Source of the DNA: a virus
Length of the DNA stretch: 64,000 nt
Reading direction: 5' to 3' (one strand)
Virus record (IMG/VR): IMGVR_UViG_3300028840_006907
Coordinates: 1-64,000 of that record
The notes beneath the pieces were generated by a model, which saw nothing but the letters and a program-made list of their open reading frames with translations, did no database searches and was not told the origin of the DNA. Below are positions 23,500 to 53,095 of this stretch, piece by piece; the stretch's first letter is position 1; each line of letters begins with the position of its first letter. The position numbers and the translations under genes were made by a program.

Positions 23500-23508
23500 T
23501 ATTATTAA
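23461..23508. repeat. 12-bp tandem repeat, about 4 copies
   Basis: cattattatcct x3 plus one degenerate copy. Confidence 0.9.
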
Positions 23509-27763: not shown

Positions 27764-28150
27764 TTATTCCAGTTCAAAATTATTATTTAAATATTCAGTG
27801 ATTTTCCAAGATTCACTTTTCTTTTTCCAATCAACCATTTCATTATCAGTAAGTACATTTCCATTATCCAATTGGAATTTAAGATTTAAAATGTCATCAG
27901 CAACAGACTTTCTTCTATCTAACCAGATAGTTTGACATTCTTCACACCAAATAAGAATAGGTTCGGTTATCCAGGTATCATCACCTGATAAATCGAATTC
28001 AATATACTCACCTCTAATTTCAAGGCTATTACTATCACATATCTGTATACCTCTAGCCATAAGATTATCATGATTCTTACAAGTTATACATCCATATTTA
28101 ACGATATGATTTATAATTTTCCATTCATTTCCTGTAATTTCCATAATCAT
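27764..28150 (-). CDS. Cys-rich zinc-binding-like protein
   Basis: CITCKNH...CEECQ motifs. Confidence 0.5.
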   Translation of the reverse strand: MIMEITGNEWKIINHIVKYGCITCKNHDNLMARGIQICDSNSLEIRGEYIEFDLSGDDTWITEPILIWCEECQTIWLDRRKSVADDILNLKFQLDNGNVLTDNEMVDWKKKSESWKITEYLNNNFELE

Positions 28151-28248
28151 ATTCTCCTTATACGTTACAGCATATATTTGATTTGTATACCCTTCAGGGT
28201 ATAAATAAACCGATAATGGATATGTTTATACCTGATCGGGACTAATTT

Positions 28249-33324: not shown

Positions 33325-33561
33325 TTACTCCCATGATAAAATTGACATACCTAAACAAGTCTCAAGCTCCTCTTGAGAACTAGGTACATGATCAGGTCGA
33401 AACTTAATCCAAGTAGAAGTTTTAACTCCCCGTACATAGGGAGGATTACATTCGATGGTCACCGCAGGAACAAAAGAAACTATGCAGTTAATCAAACCAT
33501 TACTTTCAAATTCATTGTATCGGGTAAACTTAAATGTATCCATAAATATAACTTCTTCCAT
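33325..33561 (-). CDS. hypothetical protein
   Basis: 78-aa ORF. Confidence 0.45.
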   Translation of the reverse strand: MEEVIFMDTFKFTRYNEFESNGLINCIVSFVPAVTIECNPPYVRGVKTSTWIKFRPDHVPSSQEELETCLGMSILSWE

Positions 33562-33689
33562 AAGTATTTCTGGTTTAATGGGTTACCATTGTCTACCGAC
33601 AAAATCCTCTTCATCTTCATCAGGATTGATCACATTATCCCATATGATCTTTTTAATTTTTACAAATAGCTGTATGATAAATTTCATAA

Positions 33690-33872
33690 TCAGTCCTCTG
33701 GCTGAAATGTTAAGATTAAATTCTCAATCTTTATTCCAAAGCTCCGTACCTTGTCCAATAAGGTCGGGAAATTATCCACTATAATAATTCTCGGTTTATC
33801 CTTAATAATCCCAAAAGCACTTATTGCCTTATCTGAATAATGAAGATTAATCTGTAATTCAATTTTATTCAT
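33690..33872 (-). CDS. small conserved protein, paralog of 35047-35238
   Basis: Shared DKPRIIIV(D/R)(N/D)FP...VR..GIK(I/L)E(N/D)L core. Confidence 0.55.
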   Translation of the reverse strand: MNKIELQINLHYSDKAISAFGIIKDKPRIIIVDNFPTLLDKVRSFGIKIENLILTFQPED

Positions 33873-33873
33873 A

Positions 33874-34542
33874 TCAACATGCCCTCTCTGAATAAATATT
33901 ATAATTCTCAGGTAAGTTTATCGGAACCTCCTGAAACAACTCATCAATAGCCTTCTCCGCTGTAATAGTATCATAAAAGTAGATGTCCTCTACTTCCTGC
34001 TCTAAATCCTCAGCATCCATATCACTCTCCGATAAATCCTCCCTACGAGATACCCTAACTTTAAATAACTTCACTTCATATTTCGATACCAACAAATCCG
34101 GGAAATCATCAGGGTCACCCAATACAATAACAAAAACATTCTTTAAATCATATGCCTCATAATCTATCCAGATACACTCCTGATGAAGGTATCCCCGAAA
34201 CCGAATACCTTTTACAATTGCACCACACTCTATGTAAGGTGCCATCTTAACATCACTAACCTTCTCAAGACTCTCATCCATACGGGCACAACTATTTATA
34301 ATATTACCCTTGTAACCATCATTGTATCTTAATACAACCTCCATAGTACGATCAGGACTAATATCAGCATCAAAGTCAAAATGAAAATCCACCAACAAAC
34401 TTAAACGCTCATACTCAGTTCCCGATCTAAATTTAACCAACCTAATTTTATCAATCTCGGAACCAACAGGCAATGAATTTAATAAATCCTTATCACCTAT
34501 CTTATAGCCACGACTACCATCTGCACTTATATTAACTCTCAT
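33874..34542 (-). CDS. hypothetical protein
   Basis: 222-aa ORF. Confidence 0.5.
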   Translation of the reverse strand: MRVNISADGSRGYKIGDKDLLNSLPVGSEIDKIRLVKFRSGTEYERLSLLVDFHFDFDADISPDRTMEVVLRYNDGYKGNIINSCARMDESLEKVSDVKMAPYIECGAIVKGIRFRGYLHQECIWIDYEAYDLKNVFVIVLGDPDDFPDLLVSKYEVKLFKVRVSRREDLSESDMDAEDLEQEVEDIYFYDTITAEKAIDELFQEVPINLPENYNIYSERAC

Positions 34543-34544
34543 AA

Positions 34545-34901
34545 TTACATTTCCTCCTCTATATATCTCCTTGCTTCATCTTCACTCTTAAAATAAAAAG
34601 TCGTTATATCCTTCAATTTTTTAATACGCCACTTCTTATCCTTATGATGAAATATCCTACCCTCTGAATCAACGATATAATAATAAGTCGAAGCAGCTCT
34701 ACCAAATCCATCAGGTAAATATTGATTACTAACTATCCAATAATCACCTACTCTCGGATACTTATCCAAATAGCCCAACCTCTCATAACAACTTTCACAT
34801 AATAACTCTTCAGAAGTAGCATCCTCCGGGACATCCGGGATACTAATCCCACAAACAATACATTTTATCTGATTTTCATATGCCATAATTATTTCTTCCA
34901 A
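34545..34901 (-). CDS. hypothetical Cys-containing protein
   Basis: CIVCG...CESC motifs; 118 aa. Confidence 0.5.
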   Translation of the reverse strand: MEEIIMAYENQIKCIVCGISIPDVPEDATSEELLCESCYERLGYLDKYPRVGDYWIVSNQYLPDGFGRAASTYYYIVDSEGRIFHHKDKKWRIKKLKDITTFYFKSEDEARRYIEEEM

Positions 34902-35046
34902 TCTTTTTCATAAAATTCACAGACTACATAATCAGCTTTTTTTTCTTTAAAATAAGAACAATAAATACAACCTTTTCCAACTTCAACTTCTTTGTCTTTA
35001 TAGAAAGGACATATTTTTACATTTTTATAATATATCTTCAACATGA

Positions 35047-35238
35047 TTATTTACTCCTTGTTAAATCCTCAAGCTTTATCCCCAATCCACGTACCTGTTT
35101 AAATAACTCCGGGAAATCTCTCACTATTATAATCCTCGGCTTATCCTCAATCAGCCCATAAGCACTTAGCTTATCTGAACTATATCCTAAATTAACCTGT
35201 AACGATACTTTATCCATATTCTTACCTCCATATAACAT
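35047..35238 (-). CDS. small conserved protein, paralog of 33690-33872
   Basis: About half the residues identical to 33690-33872 product. Confidence 0.55.
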   Translation of the reverse strand: MLYGGKNMDKVSLQVNLGYSSDKLSAYGLIEDKPRIIIVRDFPELFKQVRGLGIKLEDLTRSK

Positions 35239-35740
35239 TATATATACCCAATTACCTTTTTTATCCAGTAATATAACATTTTAATACTATCAAATACCAA
35301 CGTCCTATATGGTGCGTCCGTATTAATCTCTATTAAATCAGTCGTCCTATATCTTTAAACTATGGTCTATATAGTAATAAACACGATCTATAAATCAAAT
35401 AACAATTTTAAGGTAATCCTCTTACTCATCAATATCCATATCTTTATAATAAAAAACCCACACATAGCACCTATAAAAATGTGGAACCCTTTAAGGCATT
35501 TCTTAAGTAACTATGTATGGGCACTGAAAGGGATTTATACAAATCCCATTATTATCTTAATATATTAACTTACTATATGTCTATACCTATAAACATATCC
35601 CCCTATATATTACTAATTAGTAATATGAATGTAATTATCCCTATCCCCTATATCTAATAACCTATAAACTATCCATTAAGTATATCTGTATCCTATCCAT
35701 ATAATAACTCTGTAAGAGAAAATTAATATGTATCAGTATG

Positions 35741-35890
35741 CCCATTACCTTGAATAGAATAATGAGTAAGTCAGTACCAGGAACTATACCATCATGAACT
35801 ATGAACTCGGAACTATGTCAGGGAAAACTTGAGTACTTACCCATTACCTTGAATAGAATAATGGGTAAGTCAATACCAGGAACTATGTCG
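35741..35890. repeat. about 48-bp direct repeat x2 (period 99 bp), each with internal inverted repeat
   Basis: cccattaccttgaatagaataatg(a/g)gtaagtca(g/a)taccaggaactat at 35741 and 35840. Confidence 0.85.
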
Positions 35891-36057
35891 GGAATTTCCA
35901 ACGAGTATTTTGAAAAAATTTATTCTCCCTGCAAAACCCGGAACCGATTTCCTAGTTCCTACAATCATATATTAATAATCTTTTGTTATCTGTATAAGTA
36001 AATTTACACAGGGTAATTGACTGATCAAAGTAAGTTAATGTCTTCCCAAACCGAGTC

Positions 36058-36141
36058 TTTGACTTGGGGAAATTGGTTGTTGACTGTAGAGAAGAATAAT
36101 TTCACTTGCTCATTTGGGTATTTGACTTGGGGAAACTGGTT
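36058..36141. repeat. 21-bp direct repeat x2 (period 63 bp)
   Basis: tttgacttggggaaa(t/c)tggtt at 36058 and 36121. Confidence 0.85.
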
Positions 36142-36511
36142 CCCGACTATCAAAAGTGGGGTTAAAAACGAGGGGGGTTACCCCTAAATTTGATATTTCC
36201 AGACTGGGAACTCAGACAGGGGCGATTCCAGACTGTTTCTGGCCAGACTGGGGGAAAGACCTAAGACGGTCTTAGTCCACTCATCCAAGACCATTGCCAT
36301 TTATCTGATCCGTAGCTCCAGACCTGGAATGACTTGGATAGAATTTTATATGTTACTGCCAGACAGAAAATGATCTTTGAGTCTCCACGTCCCAGGATTT
36401 CCTGGACACCGTGTAATCCACGGAACTCTAGGCTATCGGCTGATTTAATTTCGTTCTGAACTTCTATGGGAAGTTCATTCATGTTTATTTGATCTATACT
36501 TGTGATATGCA

Positions 36512-36703
36512 TTAGTCTCTCAATGCCTCACAGGTAAGGGTAGCGGGAACTACTTCAAACTGAGTTCCAGGTTCAGTACCTTGTGTGAGTTCTACTGTAC
36601 GTATGCTGGCTATATTAAAGTCAGTATAGAACTCTGTGTTATCATCCCATGCGAATTTTTTATCTTTATTTATTATGATCCATCCTTGTAATTTCATAAT
36701 CAC
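36512..36703 (-). CDS. hypothetical protein
   Basis: 63-aa ORF. Confidence 0.35.
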   Translation of the reverse strand: MIMKLQGWIIINKDKKFAWDDNTEFYTDFNIASIRTVELTQGTEPGTQFEVVPATLTCEALRD

Positions 36704-36929
36704 CTCTCATTGTACGTTTAAATAGGTTTTCAGGCCATATCCAGACTGAAGAGGTATTCAGCTACCTCTCAGTTCCAGACAGGCTTAAAACAGGTTTATT
36801 CTTCTTCATCTTCGTGGTGTATGATTTCACCAGAAGTATATCCTTCTTTAATAAGTTCTGCTATGTGTTCTCTATCAAGATCGTTGAGTTCATCAACTCC
36901 AGAGAAGGTTAAATTCCACCATCCAGTCA

Positions 36930-37190
36930 TTAGTTTAACTCCTTGATACGTTTGTTAACGGTTATTACTGCTTGTTTATATGAACAGTTTGATTTATTCA
37001 TTTCCTGAGCATACCAGATAAGTCTGATAAAAGATACACAGGCGACTGCTCTGGCATGTTCACGTTCTTTCTTGGTTAATTCACCGGGATTGAAATGAAC
37101 TCCGGCAATAGTCGGGGTTGATAAGCTTCCAGGTGCACCAAATTGCTCAATCCCATACAATTGGTTATTGATTCTTTTGATTTCTGGCAT
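36930..37190 (-). CDS. hypothetical protein
   Basis: 86-aa ORF. Confidence 0.45.
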   Translation of the reverse strand: MPEIKRINNQLYGIEQFGAPGSLSTPTIAGVHFNPGELTKKEREHARAVACVSFIRLIWYAQEMNKSNCSYKQAVITVNKRIKELN

Positions 37191-37314
37191 AATTCTCTCC
37201 TTGATTGGGGGACACTGATTTAAGTTTTACCAGACAAGTCGATTCTGACTATTTTAGACTGAAATCCAGGCTGAATTTCCAGACTGATTTGGGGAACGGG
37301 ATTTCCAGACTGAA

Positions 37315-37512
37315 CTAGTCCGAATCTTCTAGGTTTGCAGATACTTCTCCATCGATTTCTTCAACATCGAAAGGATATTCAACAGAGATTTCGTCCTCAA
37401 GAGTTTCAATAGTACAGTTATCGGGTAAAGGATCTTGTACTTTAATTCTTCTATGAATAGTAATATTATAATAACGAGCCATTGCTACCTCCAGGTTTAG
37501 GTTTGTTTCCAA
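37315..37512 (-). CDS. hypothetical acidic protein
   Basis: 65-aa ORF. Confidence 0.4.
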   Translation of the reverse strand: METNLNLEVAMARYYNITIHRRIKVQDPLPDNCTIETLEDEISVEYPFDVEEIDGEVSANLEDSD

Positions 37513-37691
37513 CCAAAGTTATATTTGCTACTCCAATTTTTATAAAGCAGTTTAATATTTAAGTGAGTATTTCGTTTGATAAATGTTTTTGCCTGTTTCA
37601 ATGCAGAGTTAAATGGTCGGTCTACAAAGAAAACTTTGGTTAATTTATTCTTGGAATCAGTATACTCAATTTTGTATTTCTGTTTATTCAT
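37497..37691 (-). CDS. hypothetical basic protein
   Basis: 64-aa ORF. Confidence 0.4.
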   Translation of the reverse strand: MNKQKYKIEYTDSKNKLTKVFFVDRPFNSALKQAKTFIKRNTHLNIKLLYKNWSSKYNFGWKQT

Positions 37692-38011
37692 TTTCTGATA
37701 TTATGTTGTTCTTTTTGATGAGTCACCCAGCTATCATAACCCAGACGGGTCTCCTCATTAGAGACAGCGAGTCTCCATTCTTTCATAGGAAAGTCGGGAT
37801 CTTCAGTTTCGAGTTTAGGATTTTGTTTGATGTAATCTGCTATGGATAATTCTTTTTCCAGTACACCTTCACACCCATCATTGGTAAGATTGACTTCGAC
37901 TATTTTATAACCATCTTCGTTTAATTGTTTATGTTTTATCATGATCTCTTTTAAGGATGAAGATGTGAAAGTAACTCTTTTAATGATTAAATCTTGGTTT
38001 TGGATCTTCAT
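37688..38011 (-). CDS. hypothetical protein
   Basis: 107-aa ORF. Confidence 0.45.
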   Translation of the reverse strand: MKIQNQDLIIKRVTFTSSSLKEIMIKHKQLNEDGYKIVEVNLTNDGCEGVLEKELSIADYIKQNPKLETEDPDFPMKEWRLAVSNEETRLGYDSWVTHQKEQHNIRK

Positions 38012-38017
38012 AAATTT

Positions 38018-38239
38018 TTACTCCTGGTTATTCTGTACGAGGAATGGGTGAAAACATCCATCTATGTATTGAAGTTTATACTCATCAGTTCCTTCTCTGA
38101 ATACAGTAGGTAAAGTTTCACCTTTATTATTCACATAAGCATTCCCTGTATAGTAATGATGCTTCTTATCAAATGTGAGACCGTATTTCTTACCTATGGC
38201 GGTCAGAGTCCTACGGGCTTTAACAATTTTATTATTCAT
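38018..38239 (-). CDS. hypothetical protein
   Basis: 73-aa ORF. Confidence 0.45.
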   Translation of the reverse strand: MNNKIVKARRTLTAIGKKYGLTFDKKHHYYTGNAYVNNKGETLPTVFREGTDEYKLQYIDGCFHPFLVQNNQE

Positions 38240-38525
38240 TTTCCTTTTTCTCCTTTAAGCTCTTTAATAATAATTCAGCTCTTACACTTTCTTTTAGGAT
38301 CTCTCCATAGTGTTCATGGCCTTCCGGGAATATGAAGTATTGGATAGCTTCTTTCTTGATTGGGCAATCGGCTTCGCCATCTTTTGTGGCTGAATAGAAG
38401 TGGGGATATTGACTATATCCGTTATCCCATTGCAGGGCATAGTATCGGTTAGTCTTTTTTGATTTATATATGTTCTTAAGGAATCCGGTATGACTATATA
38501 CAAATCTTAATTCTTGATAATCCAT
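38232..38525 (-). CDS. hypothetical protein
   Basis: 97-aa ORF preceded by conserved 23-nt leader. Confidence 0.5.
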   Translation of the reverse strand: MDYQELRFVYSHTGFLKNIYKSKKTNRYYALQWDNGYSQYPHFYSATKDGEADCPIKKEAIQYFIFPEGHEHYGEILKESVRAELLLKSLKEKKENE

Positions 38526-38534
38526 ATTGGTTAA

Positions 38535-38557
38535 TCCTTTTTAAGAGATGTCAGATT
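38535..38557 (-). promoter_or_regulatory. conserved 23-nt leader/translation-initiation element (copy 1)
   Basis: Minus strand AATCTGACATCTCTTAAAAAGGA, 10 nt before ATG. Confidence 0.5.
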
Positions 38558-38579
38558 ATAACTTTTAGTTTCTTTTGAT

Positions 38580-38837
38580 TTATATGTTCTTAAGGATATC
38601 AATTAAGTCAGTTAATTCACATTCACAATAAATTGAATAATGTAGACCTTCTGCATCCAAAAAAGTTAATTTGGAATTAATTATTACTAGTTCCTCATAA
38701 TCAAATACATTTACTTTGATAGCGTTACTATCGATATGTTTTGATTTGGTCTTACTTTTATTGATCTCAGTTTTTAATGCTTCTTTAATTTCTTTTTCTA
38801 AATTATTGTATCGATTAAGTAAGTTTTGATATTTCAT
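38580..38837 (-). CDS. hypothetical protein
   Basis: 85-aa ORF preceded by conserved leader. Confidence 0.5.
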   Translation of the reverse strand: MKYQNLLNRYNNLEKEIKEALKTEINKSKTKSKHIDSNAIKVNVFDYEELVIINSKLTFLDAEGLHYSIYCECELTDLIDILKNI

Positions 38838-38843
38838 AATATT

Positions 38844-38866
38844 TCCTTTTTAAGAGATGTCAGATT
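38844..38866 (-). promoter_or_regulatory. conserved 23-nt leader/translation-initiation element (copy 2)
   Basis: Identical 23-mer, 7 nt before ATG. Confidence 0.5.
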
Positions 38867-38871
38867 GTCAT

Positions 38872-39243
38872 TTAATACTGGTTAGTTGTGATAGAGAAAG
38901 AATTATAACAACTACCAAAGACATTTTCGAATCCAGAATGACTAACTAGGTCACTGATTTTAACAGGGAGAGGTAACTTGTTAAATTCATTCTCTGTTAA
39001 TCCCAGGAAACTAAGTAGGTCATTTTTAGAGACCCAATCATATTCTTCCCAAAAATCTATATCAGCATTTACAGTGGCCCAATCAAATACACAATCGTTT
39101 GCTTTTTCTGCAACATTAACTTTATAGTAGAATCGATATTCATTTTCTTTCTTTATAAACTTCCATGCCAGACCGTATTCATAGAGAGATGTACCAAGAT
39201 CTGTATCTGTTCCTTCATATCCTTTGAGTTCTGATAAGTACAT
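38872..39243 (-). CDS. hypothetical protein
   Basis: 123-aa ORF preceded by conserved leader. Confidence 0.5.
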   Translation of the reverse strand: MYLSELKGYEGTDTDLGTSLYEYGLAWKFIKKENEYRFYYKVNVAEKANDCVFDWATVNADIDFWEEYDWVSKNDLLSFLGLTENEFNKLPLPVKISDLVSHSGFENVFGSCYNSFSITTNQY

Positions 39244-39246
39244 AGT

Positions 39247-39498
39247 TTAATCCTTTTTAAGAGATGTCAGATTACAACTTTTAGTTTGTTTAAATTTAAT
39301 GATGAATTGATCAGGGTTATCGAGTCTTACTAGGACAGTACTGGATTCATATTCATATATGATAGCTCCAGACTGTCGTAGGTCGTTCAGTATTTCTGTC
39401 TCTGGGATATTAGTATCTTTAAAGTGATAGATACTATCATTCATACCGGTAGCTCTGGGGAATTTATTATTAGGGTTTTTTGTATATTTTACTGACAT
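39247..39498 (-). CDS. hypothetical protein
   Basis: 83-aa ORF. Confidence 0.45.
   Translation of the reverse strand: MSVKYTKNPNNKFPRATGMNDSIYHFKDTNIPETEILNDLRQSGAIIYEYESSTVLVRLDNPDQFIIKFKQTKSCNLTSLKKD
39251..39273 (-). promoter_or_regulatory. conserved 23-nt leader/translation-initiation element (copy 3)
   Basis: Identical 23-mer, 8 nt before ATG; overlaps last codons of upstream gene. Confidence 0.5.
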
Positions 39499-39718
39499 TT
39501 TTTGTTAATCCTTTCTATTGGTTGTTATTTCATGTATACATAGAATTATGGCGGTAATAAAGCATATTCCCATAATTGGACCGATTGTCCATGACCATGA
39601 GAATGTTCCTATAGAACCTGCCATAATAGCCAGGATCATAATTATGCCTAGTGCGGTAGATATTTTTTCTTTCATGATGGGTATATCCTTTTTTATGAGT
39701 TACAAGATCTACTACAGT

Positions 39719-40375
39719 TTATTCCTCTTCTTTTTGTTTGAGTGAACAGAATTCACTTGCAGAAATAAGTTCTGTTACTGCATTGTATATTTCTAGGTCG
39801 TCATCACTTGGAACAAGTTCCTTTTCATACTCCAGAATAAATTCTAGGATACTTCCCATTTTATGTTCAATGTTTTCTATGTCTGGTAATCTTTTGATAT
39901 CTTCTAACCAGACATCTACATCATTACTATAGGATGAGATGAAACCGTCACAGCTAGTATAGATAGCTTTTAAGAAAGTAGAATAAGATTTAAGGACTTC
40001 TTTATTCTCAAAGAATTTTTTGATAGCTTCAAGATCAATTTCTACTTCAATATTTATCGAGTCGTTTTCATAGTTATACTGTTTAGGGGATGATACATTT
40101 TGTAGATTTATTTTAACAACATATGGTTTTAATTTCTTTTCTACAAATTCAACAAAGATTTTAGCGAGGGCTTTTTCATATCCTTCGTTATCGATTTCAA
40201 GATCATCATATTCGATTTCTTCATCCAGACTGTATCCTTTTTCTTTTCTTTCTTCATGATGCCAATCGTCATTTTCATTATAACCTTCTAATACTTTATC
40301 TGTATCCAGATCATACAGGGTATTATAGAACCCTGGAAAGAGAGGACACCAAGTTTCGATTTTAGTTGTTCTCAT
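39719..40375 (-). CDS. hypothetical acidic protein
   Basis: 218-aa ORF, D/E-rich. Confidence 0.5.
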   Translation of the reverse strand: MRTTKIETWCPLFPGFYNTLYDLDTDKVLEGYNENDDWHHEERKEKGYSLDEEIEYDDLEIDNEGYEKALAKIFVEFVEKKLKPYVVKINLQNVSSPKQYNYENDSINIEVEIDLEAIKKFFENKEVLKSYSTFLKAIYTSCDGFISSYSNDVDVWLEDIKRLPDIENIEHKMGSILEFILEYEKELVPSDDDLEIYNAVTELISASEFCSLKQKEEE

Positions 40376-40677
40376 GATAATCCTCCAGACACTATAATTT
40401 CTCTTCTCTTTTCGAGATGGTGATATCTATGTCTTTTTATAATGGTTAGATCATAACCAATGCTTTCTAGTTCTTCTTTAAGATCTTTATATTCTTCGGG
40501 AGTAGCTAATCTACTTTCCTGAATGATCCCGTAAGGGTTACAGGCTCCGTGTTGGCCTATATGTTCATAAGACGAACAGGTCATAGGATTAGTATTTCCG
40601 GGTTCTTCGGGGAAGATAGCTATTACTTCGTTTGATATTTTCCAGAAACGGAAGATCACTTTAGTTTTGTTATTCAT
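40372..40677 (-). CDS. hypothetical protein
   Basis: 101-aa ORF, 4-nt overlap. Confidence 0.45.
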   Translation of the reverse strand: MNNKTKVIFRFWKISNEVIAIFPEEPGNTNPMTCSSYEHIGQHGACNPYGIIQESRLATPEEYKDLKEELESIGYDLTIIKRHRYHHLEKRREIIVSGGLS

Positions 40678-40679
40678 AG

Positions 40680-40967
40680 TTAAGTCTCCTGTAGAGCGAT
40701 TTGAAATCTATTGGTATACTTCTGTATCTCTTTAGCGTATCTCTCATCACTCATAGTTTGGTTGTCGATTATTCTAATTTCTAGTACTTCTGAATCTTTA
40801 GTAAAAGTATTTATCATGGTAGTCTTGGTAATAGGGTAATATCCTTTCCAGTGTTTCACTATAAAGACTAAAGCCTCTTCTTTTATTACCCACTGTCTAC
40901 CGTACAATAAATCATGCTTTTTCATATCTTGGAGTATGTTTTCGAGTTTTATCCATGTTAATTTCAT
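40680..40967 (-). CDS. hypothetical protein
   Basis: 95-aa ORF. Confidence 0.45.
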   Translation of the reverse strand: MKLTWIKLENILQDMKKHDLLYGRQWVIKEEALVFIVKHWKGYYPITKTTMINTFTKDSEVLEIRIIDNQTMSDERYAKEIQKYTNRFQIALQET

Positions 40968-40968
40968 A

Positions 40969-41331
40969 TTATTTCACACACTTGTAACAGTGATTCATAA
41001 TAGTTGTGATGTTTGTATTAAAGAGTTTAACAAAGAAGTCTTTCTTATCATTATTAATAAGATATTCATAGACCGTATTAACTACATTGGCACTAAAGAG
41101 ATCCAGTAATACACCATCTACTAAAAGGCATTGTTTCTTTTTCAGTACCCATTTAATAGCGAGGATCTTTTTGATTTTACTACCATTAGTTTTACAGGTA
41201 TAATCTTTTACTGTATCGAGTATTTCTAATTTATCCTCACATGTACCATCATACCACCAATCCTTTATGATTTCAATTTCGTATTCTTTTAATTCGTTTT
41301 CGTTCATTGGATTTACTAATGTTGATGCCAT
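40969..41331 (-). CDS. hypothetical protein
   Basis: 120-aa ORF. Confidence 0.45.
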   Translation of the reverse strand: MASTLVNPMNENELKEYEIEIIKDWWYDGTCEDKLEILDTVKDYTCKTNGSKIKKILAIKWVLKKKQCLLVDGVLLDLFSANVVNTVYEYLINNDKKDFFVKLFNTNITTIMNHCYKCVK

Positions 41332-41465
41332 TATATGTTCTCCTTGTTATAATTACCTGGAACAGGTAGAGTTAAAAATATATATTACGTATTAGAAGTG
41401 CTTGAGTCGCGCTTTAAGGCATGGAGTAAGCCCGACCTTTACGGACAGTCGGGCTTCTCTATGCA

Positions 41466-42086
41466 TTACCAGTCCCAGCACCGGGCACATTCCAAACATC
41501 CCGATACTTCATGCCAGACTGCAAGACAGTCCAGAGGATGTTTAGGAACGTTTTTAACTACTGAACCATGACAGTGGTAGGGAAATACTATAATGATTCG
41601 GGGATCATCTGGAACAGTATCTACGTCTCTCCTAGGGCCAAAACACATCTTACCTGGAAATTTACTCCAGACTTTCTTTGGAGTTGTAGCATCGATACTT
41701 AATAATAATCTGAGATTAGGTAATTGATCATTAATGACCTTTGCTATTTCAGGTTTCCTTGTCATGCCATAGAACATAGTTTTAGGGCATTCATTAGCGA
41801 GGTTAATAATATTATTCACGTGATCAGGTAATAGATCACCACATCCATTTAAACGTACTGCATGACAGTTTTTACATTCGACTATGACTTTGAGTAGATC
41901 ATTACCGGTGAAGTAATCAGAAACATAGTTCTGTTTTTTCACGGTATTGGGTAAAGCCATATGTCCGGATCGGGCATAGCAAAGTTTCTGACATAACTTA
42001 CTAGGTCTACAATGCCCTTTCATGGGAAAGTTTATTGAGACACCAGTTTTCTTGTTTTCAGAAATGATAGTTAATGGAGTATACAT
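41466..42086 (-). CDS. Cys-cluster protein, possibly phage Gp37/Gp68-like
   Basis: N-terminal GHCRPSKLCQKLCYA cluster; weak resemblance only. Confidence 0.3.
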   Translation of the reverse strand: MYTPLTIISENKKTGVSINFPMKGHCRPSKLCQKLCYARSGHMALPNTVKKQNYVSDYFTGNDLLKVIVECKNCHAVRLNGCGDLLPDHVNNIINLANECPKTMFYGMTRKPEIAKVINDQLPNLRLLLSIDATTPKKVWSKFPGKMCFGPRRDVDTVPDDPRIIIVFPYHCHGSVVKNVPKHPLDCLAVWHEVSGCLECARCWDW

Positions 42087-42627
42087 ACTTATACCTCCTG
42101 TTAATATGTAACATTGTTCTTAATTTTATTCATATATTAAAGACTCTCTCGTATACTATCTTGAGAGAGGATTTTTCGAATTGATATTTATTTACTGAGC
42201 GAGTAATTGTTGTTGAATTTAATGAAATTTTAAGTACCCCAATGTGCGTGTAAGTAAATTTGAATTTTTCTGTGATAACAGACTGAAAACACTTAGGGAT
42301 GAAAACTGTAAGTACCGTCCCCCAAATAGGGCTAGGGAGGTTATTTTGTATCTGAGAAATCAGATTTGGAAAGTAAAAATAATAATATTTTTCTACTCTT
42401 TTTTGATCTTTTATAATAAATTATAAACGAGTCTCCAGGACATTCAGACCGTCTTGTGAGAAAATGATGAGTTAAATAGTTTGCGCCCCCTGGAAGCTGA
42501 AAACCGAGGGGGCGCATTAACACAAATAAAGGAACGCCCTCAAAAGAGGGTGTCACCCTTTATCTACTTAATATATCCTGAATCAACCAAAAAGTCAACT
42601 TTAATATTTCCAACACTTTATAATAAA

Positions 42628-43926
42628 TTACACGTTATAGTTCTCATTAACTGTTTCAGTTTTCTCAAATTCCTTTTTTAATAATGAGATACCATACATG
42701 CCTACGTCTGGTTGAAAGATTAATAGACGTTCATATTTAGTTCTGCCTTTTGAGAATTTCACTTTATCTCTGACAGAATCGGGGATTTCAGAAATACCAA
42801 AGAGGAGCTTATTAAGAAATTCATATTCTGCATAGAATTGATTCTTTTCATTTTCTTTATAAGATCTTTCTTTCATAAGATTAAGGATAGATCTTTCATT
42901 ACCATCAAATTTCTTTAAGAAGTTAGCATTAACAGTAAACTTCTTAGGTGATTTATATTCTTTCCATTCAACACCTTTCATCCAGTGCGGGAAAGGTTTA
43001 TCAGGATTGGCATATCTAAAGTTGGCGTATTCTTCACCACGAATATAGAACTGTAATTGAGATTTGATCTTATATGTTAGCCATTTCTTTCTTTTAACGA
43101 CTTCTACTAGAGTATCTTGGTTAAGGGGCATCATAGCATATTCCCCGACCAAGGGAGGAATATCTACTTCATAGGTGACTGATTTAATTTTAATTTTTTT
43201 CTCGTTACCAAGTTTAGTAGTTTCAGGCCATTCCTTTTTCTCTTCGGGAGGTAAGACAATACCTTTATCGTTCATAAGTTTAATAAGTCCACCAAGATAT
43301 TGTATTTCATCTTCCAGACGGGCTAGGGCTATTTTAATTACAAAGTAATTAGAGGAGAAGATATTAAATCTTCTTTGAGGAGCTATAAAATTATTAAAGG
43401 TTATCTTTCCATTGGAAGCTAGTTTAATAAAGAACTCGTTCTCTTTTGCAGTGGGCATGAACTCTATACGTTCCCAACCTTCATACCATTCACCGTCTAC
43501 ACCTACAACATTAAAGACTCGGAAGTCTCCGGTATCATCGAACTTCATGATATTAACATCAACTATTCTCATACCAAAAGACCAAAGATCTTTAGCACAA
43601 GAAAGGCCAACGACTTTACCGTGTCTATTTTCTTTTGAGACAAGGTGCTGTCCATCTTTTAAGACTGTGCCTCTCATGGCATGGTACTTAGATATATTGA
43701 TCACGGCATTACGTGACATAAAGTTATACATTGCAGACTGAAGATCGAGAGTAGTTCCGGTATAATTACCTTCAGCATCACAGACTGTTGTAGGATTTTT
43801 ACTGAATATATCGGGAATAAGACTTTTAACTAAGGTCTCATAATCTACATCCTGAGACCTGTTAATAAGAGTTTTTACGAATGGTTCTTTTAATATGTTT
43901 TTTAGTTTTTCAGGTACTTTCTTCAT
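42628..43926 (-). CDS. hypothetical protein (432 aa)
   Basis: Long ORF with TATAAT-type motif about 35 nt upstream. Confidence 0.55.
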   Translation of the reverse strand: MKKVPEKLKNILKEPFVKTLINRSQDVDYETLVKSLIPDIFSKNPTTVCDAEGNYTGTTLDLQSAMYNFMSRNAVINISKYHAMRGTVLKDGQHLVSKENRHGKVVGLSCAKDLWSFGMRIVDVNIMKFDDTGDFRVFNVVGVDGEWYEGWERIEFMPTAKENEFFIKLASNGKITFNNFIAPQRRFNIFSSNYFVIKIALARLEDEIQYLGGLIKLMNDKGIVLPPEEKKEWPETTKLGNEKKIKIKSVTYEVDIPPLVGEYAMMPLNQDTLVEVVKRKKWLTYKIKSQLQFYIRGEEYANFRYANPDKPFPHWMKGVEWKEYKSPKKFTVNANFLKKFDGNERSILNLMKERSYKENEKNQFYAEYEFLNKLLFGISEIPDSVRDKVKFSKGRTKYERLLIFQPDVGMYGISLLKKEFEKTETVNENYNV

Positions 43927-43966
43927 AATGAATATCCTTTTAAAGATTACGGTTCGGTATCATATA

Positions 43967-43978
43967 TTATACGAGATT
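43967..43978 (-). promoter_or_regulatory. CGTATAAT-type box upstream of 42628-43926
   Basis: Minus strand reads ATCTCGTATAAT; half-palindrome variant of the GAGATCTC motif. Confidence 0.35.
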
Positions 43979-44023
43979 TAGGAAAGAAAGTGATAAGAAA
44001 AAAATTTAATTATTTATTTAAGT

Positions 44024-44542
44024 CTAACCTTTCGAGGTATTTAAAGATTTAATATAATCCTTTCGTTTTGTATGATATTCTGTATAAACAAAAGGAATCT
44101 CAATAAATTGTTTCCCATACCAAGACTGGCCTTTAACATTACTTAATTGAACCTTAATATTCTGAGGAAACTCATAGTTATCCATCAACCACTTCCAGAC
44201 TTCTTCAGAGAAAAGGATATGTAGGTCAGAACAATAATTATTCATGTTCTCCTCTGGAATATTAAACATTTCTTGTAATAATTTTTTCCAGGTCATATCT
44301 AATTGATCCAAGATATCTTTCTTATCCTTTTTAGTAAGGATATAATCACACCCGTCCCCAAGGGGGACAAAGCCAGACTTAAGAGCGTGTATGGCTTTGC
44401 CTCCGGCATCGGTGGTTCCGTATAATTCAGAGGAGCATTGAAAATTAATTGATCCATCTTTATAAACTGTTATGGGAGTCTTTCTTTTAATAGTCATAAT
44501 AATCTCCAGGTTAATTGGTGAATAACCAGACTGTCGGTTCAT
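44024..44542 (-). CDS. hypothetical protein
   Basis: 172-aa ORF. Confidence 0.5.
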   Translation of the reverse strand: MNRQSGYSPINLEIIMTIKRKTPITVYKDGSINFQCSSELYGTTDAGGKAIHALKSGFVPLGDGCDYILTKKDKKDILDQLDMTWKKLLQEMFNIPEENMNNYCSDLHILFSEEVWKWLMDNYEFPQNIKVQLSNVKGQSWYGKQFIEIPFVYTEYHTKRKDYIKSLNTSKG

Positions 44543-44720
44543 AAGGTTTATTGTGGAGGTCTAACTTACCACGTAGATTCTTATGAAGGACTTTTACTGT
44601 TCGATAAGTTTTCTTATTAAGTTTAGCTTCTTTCAAAGCCTCTTCATAAGATTTACCAATTACTTTTCTTAATATCTTACCATTTACTTCTATTGATTCG
44701 GGTAGATTACATTGAATCAT
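44511..44720 (-). CDS. hypothetical protein
   Basis: 69-aa ORF. Confidence 0.4.
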   Translation of the reverse strand: MIQCNLPESIEVNGKILRKVIGKSYEEALKEAKLNKKTYRTVKVLHKNLRGKLDLHNKPYEPTVWLFTN

Positions 44721-44983
44721 AATCCCTCCTGTTCTTTATCTATCCATTCAGTTTCTATCTCAGTAAGAGCATTAATTAATTCTCTCATATGAGATATAGG
44801 AACTTCGATGAAACATTTTCCAGGTTGACCTTTACTTGTTATAGGTCTAATTTCTATGAAAGGTCTTTCACCTTCGAATGGACTTTCAAATTGCCCCAGA
44901 CTGAGACCGGAACATTTAAAAGAACCGTTACGTCCTAAGAACTTAGAATGATATCCGTCAAATTTAAAAGTTTTCTTTATCAT
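44717..44983 (-). CDS. hypothetical protein
   Basis: 88-aa ORF. Confidence 0.45.
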   Translation of the reverse strand: MIKKTFKFDGYHSKFLGRNGSFKCSGLSLGQFESPFEGERPFIEIRPITSKGQPGKCFIEVPISHMRELINALTEIETEWIDKEQEGL

Positions 44984-44997
44984 GATTTAATCTCCTG

Positions 44998-45567
44998 TTA
45001 GAGTTTTAATTCTTGTTGAATACCTTCAGTTTTTTCAATATGGTCTATATCGTGATCAATAATGCTTCGAGTATCGGGTAGTAACCCACTCTTTTCATGA
45101 TCATATCCAAAGAAGCCCCAGCAAGAGTGGATCTCTTCACCATCTTTATTTTTAACAATGTATCCGTAGACAGCATCTGTTAATAGACAGTCATAGGTCT
45201 CAACTTCAGACCGAAGAATATCTTTAATCTTTTCGATACGTTCTTCATTAAGTTCTGTCCAATTAAATTCAGACAGGGCTTTGCTTTTCTCTACGTAGAT
45301 CCAACCGACTTGACCACTGTCCCAAGGACAGTCAAAGCCAGTCGTATTCATGGTTAAACCACTGTGATCATATAGATACAGGGGTAGATAGATAACGTCC
45401 TCAAAGGGTATCGAATCGACGTCATATGGTGCGCCTTTATCATTGAAGTCGTAGCGTCTATGTTTAGATACCATTGATCCAAAATTATCCCATTCTGTTC
45501 TAGGGTTCAAGGGATCTTCATCAACATGAATTTCAATTGTGTAGTTTTTATATTTTATAGTTTCCAT
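44998..45567 (-). CDS. hypothetical protein
   Basis: 189-aa ORF. Confidence 0.5.
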   Translation of the reverse strand: METIKYKNYTIEIHVDEDPLNPRTEWDNFGSMVSKHRRYDFNDKGAPYDVDSIPFEDVIYLPLYLYDHSGLTMNTTGFDCPWDSGQVGWIYVEKSKALSEFNWTELNEERIEKIKDILRSEVETYDCLLTDAVYGYIVKNKDGEEIHSCWGFFGYDHEKSGLLPDTRSIIDHDIDHIEKTEGIQQELKL

Positions 45568-45639
45568 AATACCTCAATACCTCTCTTTTATTAAATATAA
45601 TTAACTGGAATGATTTGACTTAGATATATTTTATATATA

Positions 45640-45669
45640 ATGGGGTGGTCATCCCCGGATTTACCGGGG
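45640..45669. other. GC-rich structured element: ATGGGGTGG box plus CCCCGG-N5-CCGGGG hairpin (copy 2)
   Basis: atggggtggtcatccccggatttaccgggg; same bipartite element as 20852-20897. Confidence 0.4.
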
Positions 45670-45722
45670 CTGTCTCTGGGAGAATCGATACAAATGGCGG
45701 TGATTTAGACCACTCCATTTTA

Positions 45723-45980
45723 TTAGACATAGATATATTCTATAGCGGAATGTACAAGATAATAGCATCTTTGACCGTCATAAGTACTTTTATAGTACGC
45801 TACATGCCAGTCTTTTTTAATACTAGGGATGCACGTTCCTGTATATCCAAACTGTTCATTGACTTCTTGGAGGGAGACGTGTTTAAAGAAAGTATTGGCT
45901 GTTATCTTTCTTCCGTTATCAGTCATATCGTTAATAAGTTCTGCTGTGCTTGCAACACAGCATGTTAAATATTCATACAT
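45723..45980 (-). CDS. hypothetical protein
   Basis: 85-aa ORF. Confidence 0.45.
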   Translation of the reverse strand: MYEYLTCCVASTAELINDMTDNGRKITANTFFKHVSLQEVNEQFGYTGTCIPSIKKDWHVAYYKSTYDGQRCYYLVHSAIEYIYV

Positions 45981-46745: not shown

Positions 46746-46877
46746 TGGATACCTCCATATTTATTATTTATGATATGTTATTTATTATCGATACTTTTTC
46801 GGGACTCTCAACTCTTATGGTATCGATAAGTCCCCCCAGTAGAGAGTTCCTATCTCTCTACCGGCCAGAGTTATATA

Positions 46878-51517: not shown

Positions 51518-51572
51518 AATATTTCCCCTTGTCTAATGTATATATTAACAGTCAATTATTTTTTTCTGTTGT

Positions 51573-51940
51573 CATGAATAATGAAAAAAGTTTAGTAACT
51601 TTCCGAAGTTTTAAGAAACTTTTTCTTTGACGTTTGTTTTTTGTGGCTTTCATGAGTAATGAAAAAAGTTTAGTAACTTTCCGAAGTTTTAAAAATTTTT
51701 TCTTTCATGTAAACTTTTCCTTGTCTACATGAGTAATGAAAAAAGTTTAGTAACTTTCCGAAGTTTTAAAAATTTTTTCTTTCATGTAAACTTTTCCTTG
51801 TCTACATGAGTAATGAAATTAGTTTGGTAACTTTCCGAAGTTTTAAAAATTTTTTCTTTCATGTAAACTTTTCCTTGTCTACATGAGTAATGAAATTAGT
51901 TTGGTAACTTTCCGGAAAAAATTGTAAAAACGCTATTTTC
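51573..51940. repeat. 77-bp tandem direct repeats, about 4.4 copies
   Basis: Units begin at 51573 (degenerate), 51651, 51728, 51805, 51882 (partial). Confidence 0.95.
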
Positions 51941-52312
51941 CTTTATATAGGGGAGAGCCAGAAATCGCCCGTTTGATGTGCGTGATATATACGCCCGAAA
52001 ATGTTCCCGGTTCTAACCCCCCAGTGAAATACCCTTTCCACAAAAGTGAAATACCCCAATACAACTATACCATACCCGACCATACCCCACCCCCGGGACC
52101 TGTCTTCGGGATCATCATCATGCGCTTGCTTTTCGTGCGCTCAATGCCATACCCACCCCCTTTTTGTAAAGATTTTTGGAAGTTGGAAATGGATGGAGTT
52201 AGATTGGATTTTTTGGATGGTAGAAAATTTTGGCTGGTGGGAGAGACCCCACAGTAAAGTACCCGGTTGGTTCAGGGAAGTACCAATATGGTTCAGTGGA
52301 GTGTCTTTTTTG

Positions 52313-52370
52313 TGGCGCATATCCTGTTATAGTGGCGCATATTCTATTATAATGGCGCATATTTCAGTTC
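52313..52370. repeat. three direct GTGGCGCATAT boxes at about 20-bp spacing
   Basis: gtggcgcatatcctgttata / gtggcgcatattctattata / atggcgcatatttcagttca. Confidence 0.9.
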
Positions 52371-52397
52371 AAAGCTCTCAGAACCCAGTTCAAAGAA

Positions 52398-52628
52398 CAG
52401 GGAACAGGGAACTGAGCACAGGGAACTGAGCACAGGGAACCGAGCACAGGGAACCGAGCACAGGGAACTGAGCACAGGGAACTGAGCACAGGGAACTGAG
52501 CACAGGGAACCGAGCACAGGGAACCGAGCACAGGGAACTGAGCACAGGGAACCGAGCACAGGGAACTGAGAACAGGGAACCGAGCACAGGGAACTGAGAA
52601 CAGGGAACTGAGAACAGGGAACCGAGCA
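52398..52628. repeat. 14-bp tandem repeat array, 16 copies, GC-rich
   Basis: CAGGGAAC(T/C)GAGCA with T/C and C/A variants; partial copy then units from 52405. Confidence 0.95.
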
Positions 52629-52872
52629 CCTGTATCTGTGATCTCGGAAAAGTTTCGGGAAAAAAATCGGGAACGGCTCAGGGCTGAGAAATAGGTATGA
52701 ATTTTTTTGGGGTATAATTTTTGGAGTTAAACAGTTGGGGAAATTGGAGTTATCTTATGTGAGGTGATGGGATAGTTTATGGAGGGTGAAAATTTTTTGG
52801 TATAGTTTGATGGAGAAACAGGTATAATACTTATAGGACGGAAAAATTTAAGTCTAATGGTTCGAGGATCTT

Positions 52873-53064
52873 GTGAAGAAGAACACAAAGCGTAAATTAA
52901 ATAAATTGATAGCATTTTGCAAGGATGAGGGGATGGACATAAGTGCGGATGGTGGTTTAATTTATGTCACGGTAGGAAATGGTCGGATGAATGAGGAGGT
53001 TTGGTGTGAGAAGGCTATCAGTGGTTTTTCGGAGGTTGGTGATTTTGGTTTTAACGAGGATTAA
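52873..53064 (+). CDS. hypothetical protein, first gene of rightward array
   Basis: 63-aa ORF; GGTATAAT box about 40 nt upstream. Confidence 0.45.
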   Translation: MKKNTKRKLNKLIAFCKDEGMDISADGGLIYVTVGNGRMNEEVWCEKAISGFSEVGDFGFNED

Positions 53065-53095
53065 AACCTATTAACATTAAACAATTGAGGTAGTT

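What the first reader, a model, noticed from the sequence alone, without database searches (positions are those of the whole stretch)
35239..36260. One-kb gene-free, locally GC-rich region with nested repeats and hairpins
No strand-consistent ORF spans 35239-36260 in an otherwise gene-dense array. It contains a 48-bp direct repeat x2 with internal inverted repeats (35741, 35840), a 21-bp direct repeat x2 (36058, 36121), a perfect palindrome ctaagac-g-gtcttag near 36259-36273, and recurring CCAGACTG words that continue in gaps to 37320. It may encode structured non-coding RNA, or be a packaging site or a second origin.
Basis: seen in the sequence. Interest (0 to 1): 0.65.

Follow-up and report, generated by a model that had tools for sequence, protein, structure and literature searches.

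The report
Conserved iteron hub, candidate phage origin
The 1-kb gene-free stretch is a conserved block of DNA protein-binding repeats at the end of an early-gene operon in an uncultivated ~469-kb phage-like genome; it is most likely a replication origin and/or transcription control hub, and not a structured RNA gene.

Summary

Its core is CAAGTCAAnTACCC and the spacing is exactly 21 bp. Five relatives from other metagenomes share the gene order, and all keep the array and its phasing.

Reading leftward, the hub contains:
- CAGTCTGG clusters in the 3' end of the upstream operon
- a conserved terminator-like hairpin
- the iteron array, headed by a dyad element
- a conserved T-run block
- a strand-asymmetric, ATAG-rich AT tract holding one of the least stable duplex segments in the window
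- a TATAGGACG block

GC and AT skew flip here with origin polarity, but the effect fades within about 10 kb.

A second hub at 51.5-53.1 kb carries the same boxes in inverted orientation. Nothing supports a structured RNA: no Rfam match, no covariation and weak fold z-scores.

Best reading: an iteron-type origin that doubles as an operon boundary (0.4). Close rival: a purely transcriptional control hub (0.3). A T5 injection-stop-like site is the closest architectural analogue.

The parts
35218..36260 (.). Whole gene-free hub between the last gene of the leftward operon (36261-36512) and the next leftward gene (probable start 35217)
   Evidence: Equivalent gene-free hubs of about 990 bp in L031 and about 1150 bp in L032.
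36188..36260 (-). 3' untranslated end of the upstream operon with three exact CAGTCTGG words (+ strand 36199, 36228, 36243) and one variant (CTGTCTGA)
   Evidence: The same clusters sit at the same place in L027, L031 and L032.
36161..36185 (-). Terminator-like hairpin AGGGG-TAAC-CCCCT followed by CGTTTTT
   Evidence: Sequence-conserved in all five relatives, always directly after a TCTGGAWT word. The T-run is weak in L030 and L031.
36115..36157 (-). Dyad element TTTTGATAGTCGGGAAC-CAG-TTTCCCCAAGTCAAA: an inverted partner facing iteron 1
   Evidence: This is the most conserved block of the hub (GAACCAGTTT invariant in 5 sequences).
36010..36130 (-). Iteron array: six copies at an exact 21-bp period. 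Copies start at 36130, 36109, 36088, 36067, 36046 (degenerate) and 36025. Core CAAGTCAAnTACCC.
   Evidence: The 21/42-bp phasing is kept in L027, L029, L030, L031 and L032.
35897..35919 (-). Conserved block ATTTTTTCAAAATACTCGTTGGA (T-run plus a -10-like word). Possible promoter or protein site.
   Evidence: Identical over 22 nt in L030 and closely similar in L031 and L032.
35741..35886 (+). Two 47-nt direct repeats (35741-35787, 35840-35886), each followed by GGAACTAT words. Lineage-specific; the hairpin is intact only in copy 2.
   Evidence: Absent from L030, L031 and L032, which carry other short periodic repeats here (about 10.6-bp period in L030).
35290..35700 (-). AT-rich (27% GC), purine-skewed tract packed with ATAG words in one orientation. 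It contains the least stable duplex of the hub (about 35535-35685).
   Evidence: (24 ATAG per kb against about 4.5 elsewhere; the complement is not enriched), (sense-strand GC skew +0.3 to +0.67; rank 2 of the window for 150-bp windows).
35302..35351 (-). Two exact TATAGGACG words, 70-115 nt upstream of the next gene
   Evidence: 4 exact copies in the window; 3 lie in the two hubs and point at the downstream genes. Also present in L031 and L032.
36704..36795 (-). Intergenic gap with two CWGTCTGG words flanking a hairpin that is kept through compensatory changes
37191..37314 (-). Intergenic gap upstream of the conserved 86-aa gene, with two exact CAGTCTGG words, one one-mismatch copy (CAGCCTGG) and further degenerate copies
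   Evidence: The same arrangement is found in L027, L029, L030, L031 and L032.
36261..36275 (.). Palindrome CTAAGAC-N-GTCTTAG overlapping the stop codon of gene 36261-36512. Not conserved.
51518..53095 (+). Twin hub at the point where gene orientation flips. It has iteron-like boxes at 52020, 52042, 52250 and 52271 (+ strand, in pairs 21-22 bp apart), TATAGGAC at 52832, and tandem arrays of 77 bp x4.4 and 14 bp x16.

Best explanation
The region works as DNA, not as RNA or protein. It is a conserved cis-acting hub at the end of a leftward operon of small early-type genes (51.5 -> 36.2 kb) in a ~469-kb phage-like genome.

Shown:
- The upstream transcript most likely ends at a conserved hairpin (36185-36161).
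- Next come a dyad element and six phased 21-bp iterons. This is the geometry of an array bound cooperatively by one sequence-specific protein on one face of the helix.
- Then come a conserved T-run block and a strand-asymmetric AT-rich tract that includes one of the easiest-to-melt segments of the window.
- Last is a TATAGGACG block just before the next gene.

Inferred: an unidentified phage protein binds the iterons, opens the adjacent AT tract and starts bidirectional replication. The same hub also separates two transcription units and supplies the promoter of the left-hand one. The related hub at 51.5-53.1 kb, with the boxes inverted, would be bound by the same protein.
For: Six iterons at an exact 21-bp period, with conserved cores and free spacers. 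The phasing is kept in five relatives whose proteins are only 59-77% identical.

An inverted half-site forms a dyad with iteron 1, and this is the best-conserved block of the hub.

A PWM built from the 36-kb hub and its relatives scores highly only in the two hubs. The 52-kb boxes were not used to build it.

The AT tract contains the second least stable 150-bp duplex of the 64-kb window.

Plus-strand GC skew jumps from -0.45/-0.55 to about 0 between 35.4 and 35.9 kb, and AT skew shifts the complementary way, although genes are on the minus strand on both sides.

Coding-strand GC3 skew is +0.39 just left of the hub and -0.24 just right of it. The negative trend next to the hub recurs in relatives.

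Inside every hub the sense-strand skew flips from negative to strongly positive.

The hub is kept while neighbouring genes are lost, decayed or swapped.

A distant relative has a different iteron family at the same spot, as expected if the site co-evolves with its binding protein.

Ordinary operon boundaries in this window need 330 bp or less.
Against: No initiator, helicase, primase or polymerase gene was recognised next to the hub or among the window ORFs scanned. The conserved 86-aa neighbour has no significant fold match.

DnaA boxes are not enriched.

The skew effect fades with distance. Genes at 1-24 kb have GC3 skew of about -0.05. A simple two-replichore model from this site does not predict that; divergent strong transcription would.

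The iterons lie 700-800 bp from the next gene in both hubs. That is compatible with, but not specific to, an origin.

Only 64 kb of a 469-kb genome could be inspected.
Confidence: 0.4

Rival explanations
1. Purely transcriptional control hub. It would comprise the terminator of the early operon, an operator/enhancer array (the iterons) for a phage regulator, and strong outward promoters. The skew pattern would reflect transcription-associated mutation rather than replication.
For: A terminator-like hairpin is conserved directly after the operon. A conserved T-run/-10-like block and TATAGGACG words sit near the 5' end of the outward units in both hubs.

Both outward units (35->25 kb and 53->64 kb) have high coding-strand GC3 skew that decays with distance from the hub, as transcription polarity would give. 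A sigma-like gene lies in the window. Relative L033 shows clean TTGACA-N17-TATTAT promoters at this position.
Against: The promoter scan finds fewer sigma-70-like sites than in shuffles, and none that is conserved. Six phased iterons 700-800 bp upstream of the first gene is unusual for bacterial-type operators.

The negative GC3 skew of sense-transcribed genes just right of the hub needs an extra assumption, namely antisense transcription. Other operon boundaries in the window are three or more times shorter.
Confidence: 0.3
2. DNA-entry or genome-end control site, like the phage T5 injection stop signal, or a pac/cos-proximal region. The 36-52 kb module would be the first DNA to enter or be expressed. 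The two hubs would hold the DNA at a checkpoint or mark a physical end.
For: [quoted passage not shown] Their order is conserved while adjacent ORFs are not. The same protein-box module occurs again, inverted, in a second untranslated region of the pre-early module (bioRxiv 10.1101/866236).

The same pattern is seen here: two hubs with inverted boxes flanking a module of small ORFan genes. A polar 8-mer confined to that module could be an end-protection or entry-related signal.
Against: There are no paired DnaA boxes. Nothing shows that a genome end or terminal repeat is nearby. The one assembly break seen (51874) lies in a tandem repeat and is most simply an assembler artefact. No terminase was found among the window ORFs scanned. 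The T5 mechanism itself is not settled.
Confidence: 0.12
3. Partition or nucleoid-organising site: centromere-like repeat arrays bound by a small adaptor protein.
For: Phased direct repeats occur in two separate clusters. The CAGTCTGG words are spread over three neighbouring gaps upstream of small conserved genes. The 86-aa protein is strongly conserved.
Against: No ParA, ParM or TubZ-type gene was recognised nearby. The 86-aa protein has no significant fold match.
Confidence: 0.06
4. One or more structured non-coding RNAs transcribed from the gap.
For: The region has local hairpins (35835-35870, z -3.85). ATAG words and CAGTCTGG words show single-strand orientation bias. In copy 1 of the 47-nt repeat the substitution is wobble-compatible only on the minus strand (read directly from the sequences).
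Against: No Rfam match even at E<=5. No tRNA or tmRNA. Global fold z-scores are -1.55 and -2.0. The conserved block has 0 compensatory pairs. The only strong hairpin is lineage-specific and degenerate in its second copy.
Confidence: 0.05

Closest known systems
Iteron-type replication origins (phage lambda ori; plasmid origins of P1, F, R6K, RK2, pPS10)
   Same: It has an array of 4-7 direct repeats with conserved cores spaced two helical turns apart. An inverted copy of the repeat forms a dyad beside the array. An easily melted AT-rich tract lies next to it. Local strand asymmetry has origin polarity. The comparison with these families rests on established knowledge; the anatomy is.
   Different: No initiator gene overlaps or adjoins the array. 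There are no DnaA boxes. A second hub 16 kb away carries the same boxes inverted. The AT tract is long (about 400 bp) and filled with one-orientation ATAG words rather than a few 13-mers.
Phage T5 untranslated repeat regions / injection stop signal (iss)
   Same: [quoted passage not shown] Both are conserved in order among relatives while flanking ORFs turn over. In both, the same box module is repeated in inverted orientation in a second untranslated region (one search compared).
   Different: The boxes here are not DnaA boxes. No terminal repeat or genome end is documented here. There is no sequence similarity.
Promoter-linked phage origins at early/late boundaries (T7 primary origin, T4 oriF/oriG, lactococcal phage c2 ori)
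   Same: These are non-coding AT-rich regions at the junction of temporal transcription units, where promoters and an unwinding element coincide (from established knowledge).
   Different: Those origins rely on a transcript as primer and lack phased iteron arrays. No promoter could be assigned with confidence here.

Membership tests
Iteron-type replication origin | Three or more direct repeats (17-22 bp) phased at about two helical turns | tested here: met
   Six copies at an exact 21-bp period, 36130-36010. Phasing is conserved in five relatives.
Iteron-type replication origin | Adjacent AT-rich DNA-unwinding element | tested here: met
   35239-35730 is 27% GC. 35535-35685 is the second least stable 150-bp duplex of the 64-kb window. 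No discrete 13-mer repeats were seen.
Iteron-type replication origin | Initiator (Rep) gene overlapping or adjacent to the iterons | tested here: not met
   Pfam and PHROGs scans of flanking ORFs found no Rep, helicase or primase. The 86-aa neighbour has no fold match.
Iteron-type replication origin | Strand-compositional polarity switch at the site | tested here: inconclusive
   There is a sharp local switch with origin polarity. It fades within about 10 kb on the left. The whole genome was not available.
Iteron-type replication origin | Host initiator (DnaA) boxes | tested here: not met
   29 matches against 26 expected in the window, with no cluster inside the gene-free interval; the nearest matches (35076, 35141, 35210) lie in the gene to its left.
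Iteron-type replication origin | Replication initiation mapped to the site | not testable with these tools
   This needs read-depth profiles or 2D gels.
Operon boundary (intrinsic terminator plus promoter) | GC-rich hairpin followed by a T-run directly after the last gene | tested here: met
   36185-36161 on the minus strand. It is sequence-conserved in relatives, but the T-run is weak in L030 and L031.
Operon boundary (intrinsic terminator plus promoter) | Recognisable, conserved promoter for the downstream unit | tested here: inconclusive
   No conserved sigma-70 match. Candidate elements only: 35897-35919, TGTTATATT at 35278-35270, and the TATAGGACG words.
Structured non-coding RNA | Match to a curated RNA family | tested here: not met
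   Rfam at gathering thresholds and at E<=5: 0 matches. No tRNA or tmRNA.
Structured non-coding RNA | Conserved secondary structure with compensatory changes | tested here: not met
   0 of 20 predicted pairs are compensatory in the conserved block. Fold z-scores are -1.55 and -2.0.
T5-type injection stop region | Large untranslated region of nested repeats, conserved in order while flanking ORFs vary | tested here: met
   T5 description from bioRxiv 10.1101/866236.
T5-type injection stop region | Same box module present inverted in a second untranslated region of the early module | tested here: met
   Iteron-like boxes on the opposite strand at 52020-52286.
T5-type injection stop region | Paired DnaA boxes | tested here: not met
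T5-type injection stop region | Location in a terminal repeat at the first-injected genome end | not testable with these tools
   Physical termini are unknown. The only assembly break seen lies in a tandem repeat.
pac/cos packaging site | Next to terminase genes; termini map there | not testable with these tools
   No terminase among the window ORFs scanned. Termini cannot be mapped from an assembly.
CRISPR-like array (for the 47-nt repeats) | Several evenly spaced repeats with unique spacers, and cas genes nearby | tested here: not met
   Only two copies, 99 bp apart, none elsewhere in the window. Absent from relatives.

The most novel reading that the evidence does not exclude
The two hubs and the operon between them form one self-contained 'early cassette' of a 469-kb phage. 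The inverted iteron arrays at both ends would act as paired checkpoints, either for stepwise DNA entry in the T5 manner or for a local, bidirectional, origin-proximal replication or R-loop process. The polar word CAGTCTGG is about 100-fold enriched on the sense strand of this cassette only, in coding and non-coding DNA and in every reading frame. It would be a previously undescribed polar signal, for example a Chi-like end-protection site or a mark for programmed decay or processing of early mRNA.
Probability: 0.12. Interest if true: 0.75.

Novelty: new member of a known kind. Interest (0 to 1): 0.45.

Why it matters
To my knowledge, replication origins and early-gene control sites of huge uncultivated phages have not been mapped. 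This work gives a concrete element defined to the base pair: six phased iterons, a dyad, a melting-prone tract, and a twin hub 16 kb away. It is conserved across metagenomes. It can be tested directly with existing read sets (coverage peaks, read-start pile-ups, transcript ends) and with simple binding assays using the handful of small conserved proteins encoded next to it. It also exposes a module-restricted polar 8-mer, which is unusual in its own right.

Tried and rejected
Hidden gene with recoded stops: all six frames carry many TAA, TAG and TGA codons.

Conserved small ORF: tblastn hits to relatives fall in several frames on both strands, so the conservation is at DNA level. L031 has no ORF of 30 aa or more over the conserved part.

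Rfam, tRNA and tmRNA searches found nothing.

CRISPR-like or MITE reading of the 47-nt repeat: only two copies, lineage-specific.

Transposon-end reading of the inverted iteron sets: no transposase was recognised in the module ORFs scanned, and the AT-rich half outside the iterons is conserved together with them.

DnaA boxes are not enriched.

Close DNA relatives: none in GenBank phages or PLSDB plasmids.

Motif and protein scans of IMG/VR, JGI metagenomes and GTDB genomes gave only chance hits or nothing.

Fold of the conserved 86-aa neighbour: confident model, but no significant PDB match.

The 432-aa operon protein has no PDB relative, by sequence or by profile.

TRF does not detect the iteron array because the spacers are free.

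A post-hoc promoter pattern shared by the two hubs is not independent evidence.

Full report
CONTEXT

The window is 33% GC and densely packed with small genes. They lie on the minus strand from 1 to 51.5 kb and on the plus strand from 53.1 kb. A protein from the window occurs with 100% identity on contigs of 469,021-469,617 bp, and an ENA contig matches window 51874-36878 exactly.

Recognisable genes are of phage or mobile-element type:
- an AAA+ ATPase (phrog_8638, E 1.7e-120)
- FtsK/SpoIIIE-like
- an N6/N4 methylase
- DprA-like
- DUF932
- GP88-like
- a weak sigma-like hit

No structural, terminase or replication gene was recognised in the ORFs I scanned. I therefore treat the source as an uncultivated ~469-kb phage-like genome. 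That identity is inferred, not shown.

THE OBSERVATION

- Window 35239-36260 has no ORF in any frame, and reading through TAG or TGA does not create one.
- The gene on the left probably starts at 35217, so the gap is 35218-36260.
- The 47-nt direct repeat (35741, 35840), the 31-nt repeat (36055, 36118), the palindrome at 36261-36275 and the CCAGACTG words (15 against 0.7 expected) are all real.
- 'Locally GC-rich' applies only to the right-hand third (40% GC). The left half is 27% GC.
- Apart from 51.5-53.1 kb, no other gap in the window exceeds 330 bp.

RELATIVES

No close DNA relative exists in GenBank phages, PLSDB, IMG/VR, JGI metagenomes or GTDB genomes.

Relatives were reached through the conserved 86-aa protein encoded at 36930-37190. 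Contigs L027, L029, L030, L031 and L032 share the gene order of the operon, and all run into a gene-free region at the same place. Two of them (L031, about 990 bp; L032, about 1150 bp) span it completely. The 86-aa proteins are 59-77% identical to the window's, so synonymous and neutral sites should be well diverged.

ANATOMY

The description reads along the minus strand, which is the sense strand of the flanking genes.

1. 36260-36188: the 3' end of the operon, with three exact CAGTCTGG words and one variant.
2. 36185-36161: hairpin AGGGG-TAAC-CCCCT followed by CGTTTTT. It is sequence-conserved in every relative and always preceded by TCTGGAWT.
3. 36157-36115: a dyad, TTTTGATAGTCGGGAAC-CAG-TTTCCCCAAGTCAAA. 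This is the best-conserved block.
4. 36130-36010: six copies of CAAGTCAAnTACCC at exactly 21-bp intervals, one of them degenerate. Relatives show the same 21/42-bp spacing while the spacers differ.
5. A conserved AAAAGATTATTAATA word, and the block ATTTTTTCAAAATACTCGTTGGA (35919-35897). The block is identical over 22 nt in L030.
6. 35886-35741: the two 47-nt repeats. These are specific to this genome. Relatives have other short repeats here, with a period of about 10.6 bp in L030. Only one of the two copies folds well.
7. 35700-35290: a 27%-GC tract with 24 ATAG words per kb in one orientation, against about 4.5 per kb elsewhere. The complement is not enriched. The tract contains the second least stable 150-bp duplex of the 64-kb window.
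8. Two TATAGGACG words (35351, 35309). The word is also present near the downstream end of the L031 and L032 hubs.

NOT AN RNA AND NOT A GENE

- Rfam gives nothing at gathering thresholds or at E<=5. ARAGORN gives nothing.
- Fold z-scores for 501 nt are -1.55 (minus strand) and -2.0 (plus strand).
- RNAalifold on the conserved 250 nt finds no compensatory pair.
- Translated matches to relatives occur in several frames on both strands, which is the signature of DNA-level conservation.

A TWIN HUB

A position weight matrix built from the iterons of the 36-kb hub and its relatives gives high scores in only two places. One is that hub, on the minus strand. The other is 52020, 52042, 52250 and 52271 on the plus strand, in pairs 21-22 bp apart. 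These sites lie in the second gene-free region (51518-53095), where gene orientation flips.

That region also carries TTGGGGAAATTGG and TATAGGACGG in the outward direction, plus tandem arrays of 77 bp x4.4 and 14 bp x16. The operon at 36.2-51.5 kb is therefore flanked by two related hubs with inverted boxes.

STRAND COMPOSITION

Plus-strand GC skew changes from -0.45/-0.55 to about 0 between 35.4 and 35.9 kb. AT skew shifts in the complementary sense. Genes are on the minus strand on both sides.

Coding-strand GC3 skew along the window:

| Interval | GC3 skew |
|---|---|
| 1-24 kb | -0.05 |
| 30-35.3 kb | +0.39 (the three genes nearest the hub: +0.59, +0.76, +0.91) |
| 36.2-40.4 kb | -0.24 |
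| 40.4-46 kb | -0.125 |
| 46-51.6 kb | -0.03 |
| 53-58 kb | +0.54 |

Relatives show the same drift to negative values towards the hub. Inside every hub the sense-strand skew flips from negative to strongly positive.

The polarity is that of an origin: G and T are enriched on the strands leading away from the site. But the effect decays with distance. A simple replichore model does not predict this decay; strong divergent transcription, including antisense transcription over 36-40 kb, would.

THE POLAR WORD

With one mismatch allowed, CAGTCTGG occurs 31 times on the sense strand between 36 and 49 kb and only twice elsewhere in the window on that strand. Nine copies lie in the three gaps next to the hub. 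The other 22 lie inside genes in all three frames. Relatives show the same sense-only excess. This is selection on the nucleotide word within one transcription unit, and I cannot explain it. The density is highest beside the hub, and the last copy always abuts the terminator-like hairpin.

INTERPRETATION

Shown:
- The hub is a DNA-level, conserved, multi-part element.
- It contains a phased binding array.
- It sits at the end of an operon.
- It coincides with a local inversion of strand asymmetry and with a melting-prone tract.
- It has a partner 16 kb away.

Inferred: it is an iteron-type origin that also serves as the operon boundary (0.4).

Points against are the missing initiator gene, the absence of DnaA boxes and the short reach of the skew signal.

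The close rival is a purely transcriptional control hub (0.3). The closest architectural analogue in the literature is the untranslated repeat region or injection stop signal of T5-like phages. There, nested repeats are conserved while neighbouring ORFs turn over, and the same box module recurs inverted in a second untranslated region of the pre-early module (bioRxiv 10.1101/866236). That reading gets 0.12, because nothing here documents a genome end and the boxes are not DnaA boxes. Centromere-like (0.06) and non-coding RNA (0.05) readings are minor.

SUPPORT FROM TURNOVER

Genes next to the hub change between relatives:
- The 83-aa gene is absent from L030 and L031 and is a remnant in L032.
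- Genes found left of the hub in the window sit inside the operon in L027, L029 and L030.

The hub persists through all of this. In the more distant L033, the same position holds a 440-bp gene-free stretch with a different repeat family. This is what one expects of a binding site that co-evolves with its protein.

VERDICT

The element is a new member of a known kind, an iteron-bearing cis-acting hub. It has two less ordinary features worth following up: the inverted twin hub and the module-restricted polar 8-mer. Interest is 0.45.

Noticed in passing
window 36199-48107 (+ strand word CCAGACTG; sense-strand CAGTCTGG): A polar 8-mer is confined to the leftward operon. With one mismatch allowed there are 31 copies between 36 and 49 kb on one strand and 2 elsewhere. 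It occurs inside genes in all three reading frames as well as in gaps. Relatives L027, L030, L031 and L032 show the same sense-only excess. Function unknown.
   Followed up: partly
window 51518-53095: This is a second, larger gene-free hub at the point of divergent transcription. It has tandem arrays of 77 bp x4.4 (51573-51914), 20 bp x2.5 (52313-52363) and 14 bp x16 (ACAGGGAACTGAGC, 52404-52629). It also has iteron-like boxes inverted relative to the 36-kb hub. One public assembly of the genome breaks inside the 77-bp array.
   Followed up: partly
window 33874-35238 and 36261-40375: Coding-strand GC3 skew is extreme in the three genes just left of the hub (+0.59, +0.76, +0.91). It is negative (-0.24 pooled) in the twelve genes just right of it. 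The effect fades with distance on both sides.
   Followed up: partly
window 35047-35238 and 33690-33872: These two small genes are paralogues (58% identity over 52 aa). The alignment indicates that the true start of the first is ATG 35217, behind a GGAGG site, and not 35238.
   Followed up: yes
window 33328-33582, 27767-28225; L027 8745-8960; L029 2765-3082; L030 5101-5412; L032 1790-1860: Genes move across the hub between relatives: two window genes left of the hub have their homologues inside the operon of relatives. The 83-aa gene next to the hub is missing in L030 and L031 and is a decayed remnant in L032.
   Followed up: partly
L033 949-1387: A more distant relative has a 440-bp gene-free stretch at the same position after the 86-aa-family gene, with a different repeat family: TGGCATG-N-TATTTGCA x3 at 16-bp spacing and about four GGTATG-type repeats (e.g. 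GGTATGAAATTTG) at 26-41-bp spacing. Clean TTGACA-N17-TATTAT promoters precede the next genes.
   Followed up: partly
window 36704-36795: The hairpin between two small genes is flanked by CWGTCTGG words. Six relatives keep it with different sequences (4 of 20 pairs compensatory). It is probably an RNA-level attenuator or processing hairpin.
   Followed up: partly
window 36930-37190: The 86-aa protein is the most conserved small protein near the hub (14 database relatives, 54-77% identity). The model is confident (pLDDT 82; two strands plus a three-helix bundle), but it has no significant match in the PDB.
   Followed up: partly
window 23460-23505: A perfect 12-bp tandem repeat, TCATTATTATCC x3.8.
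   Followed up: no
window 18000-20000: This is the lowest-GC stretch of the window (23-26%) and holds the least stable duplex segment (about 19.07-19.2 kb). It overlaps an NAD-dependent epimerase-like gene (18540-19607), and its composition differs from the neighbours.
   Followed up: no
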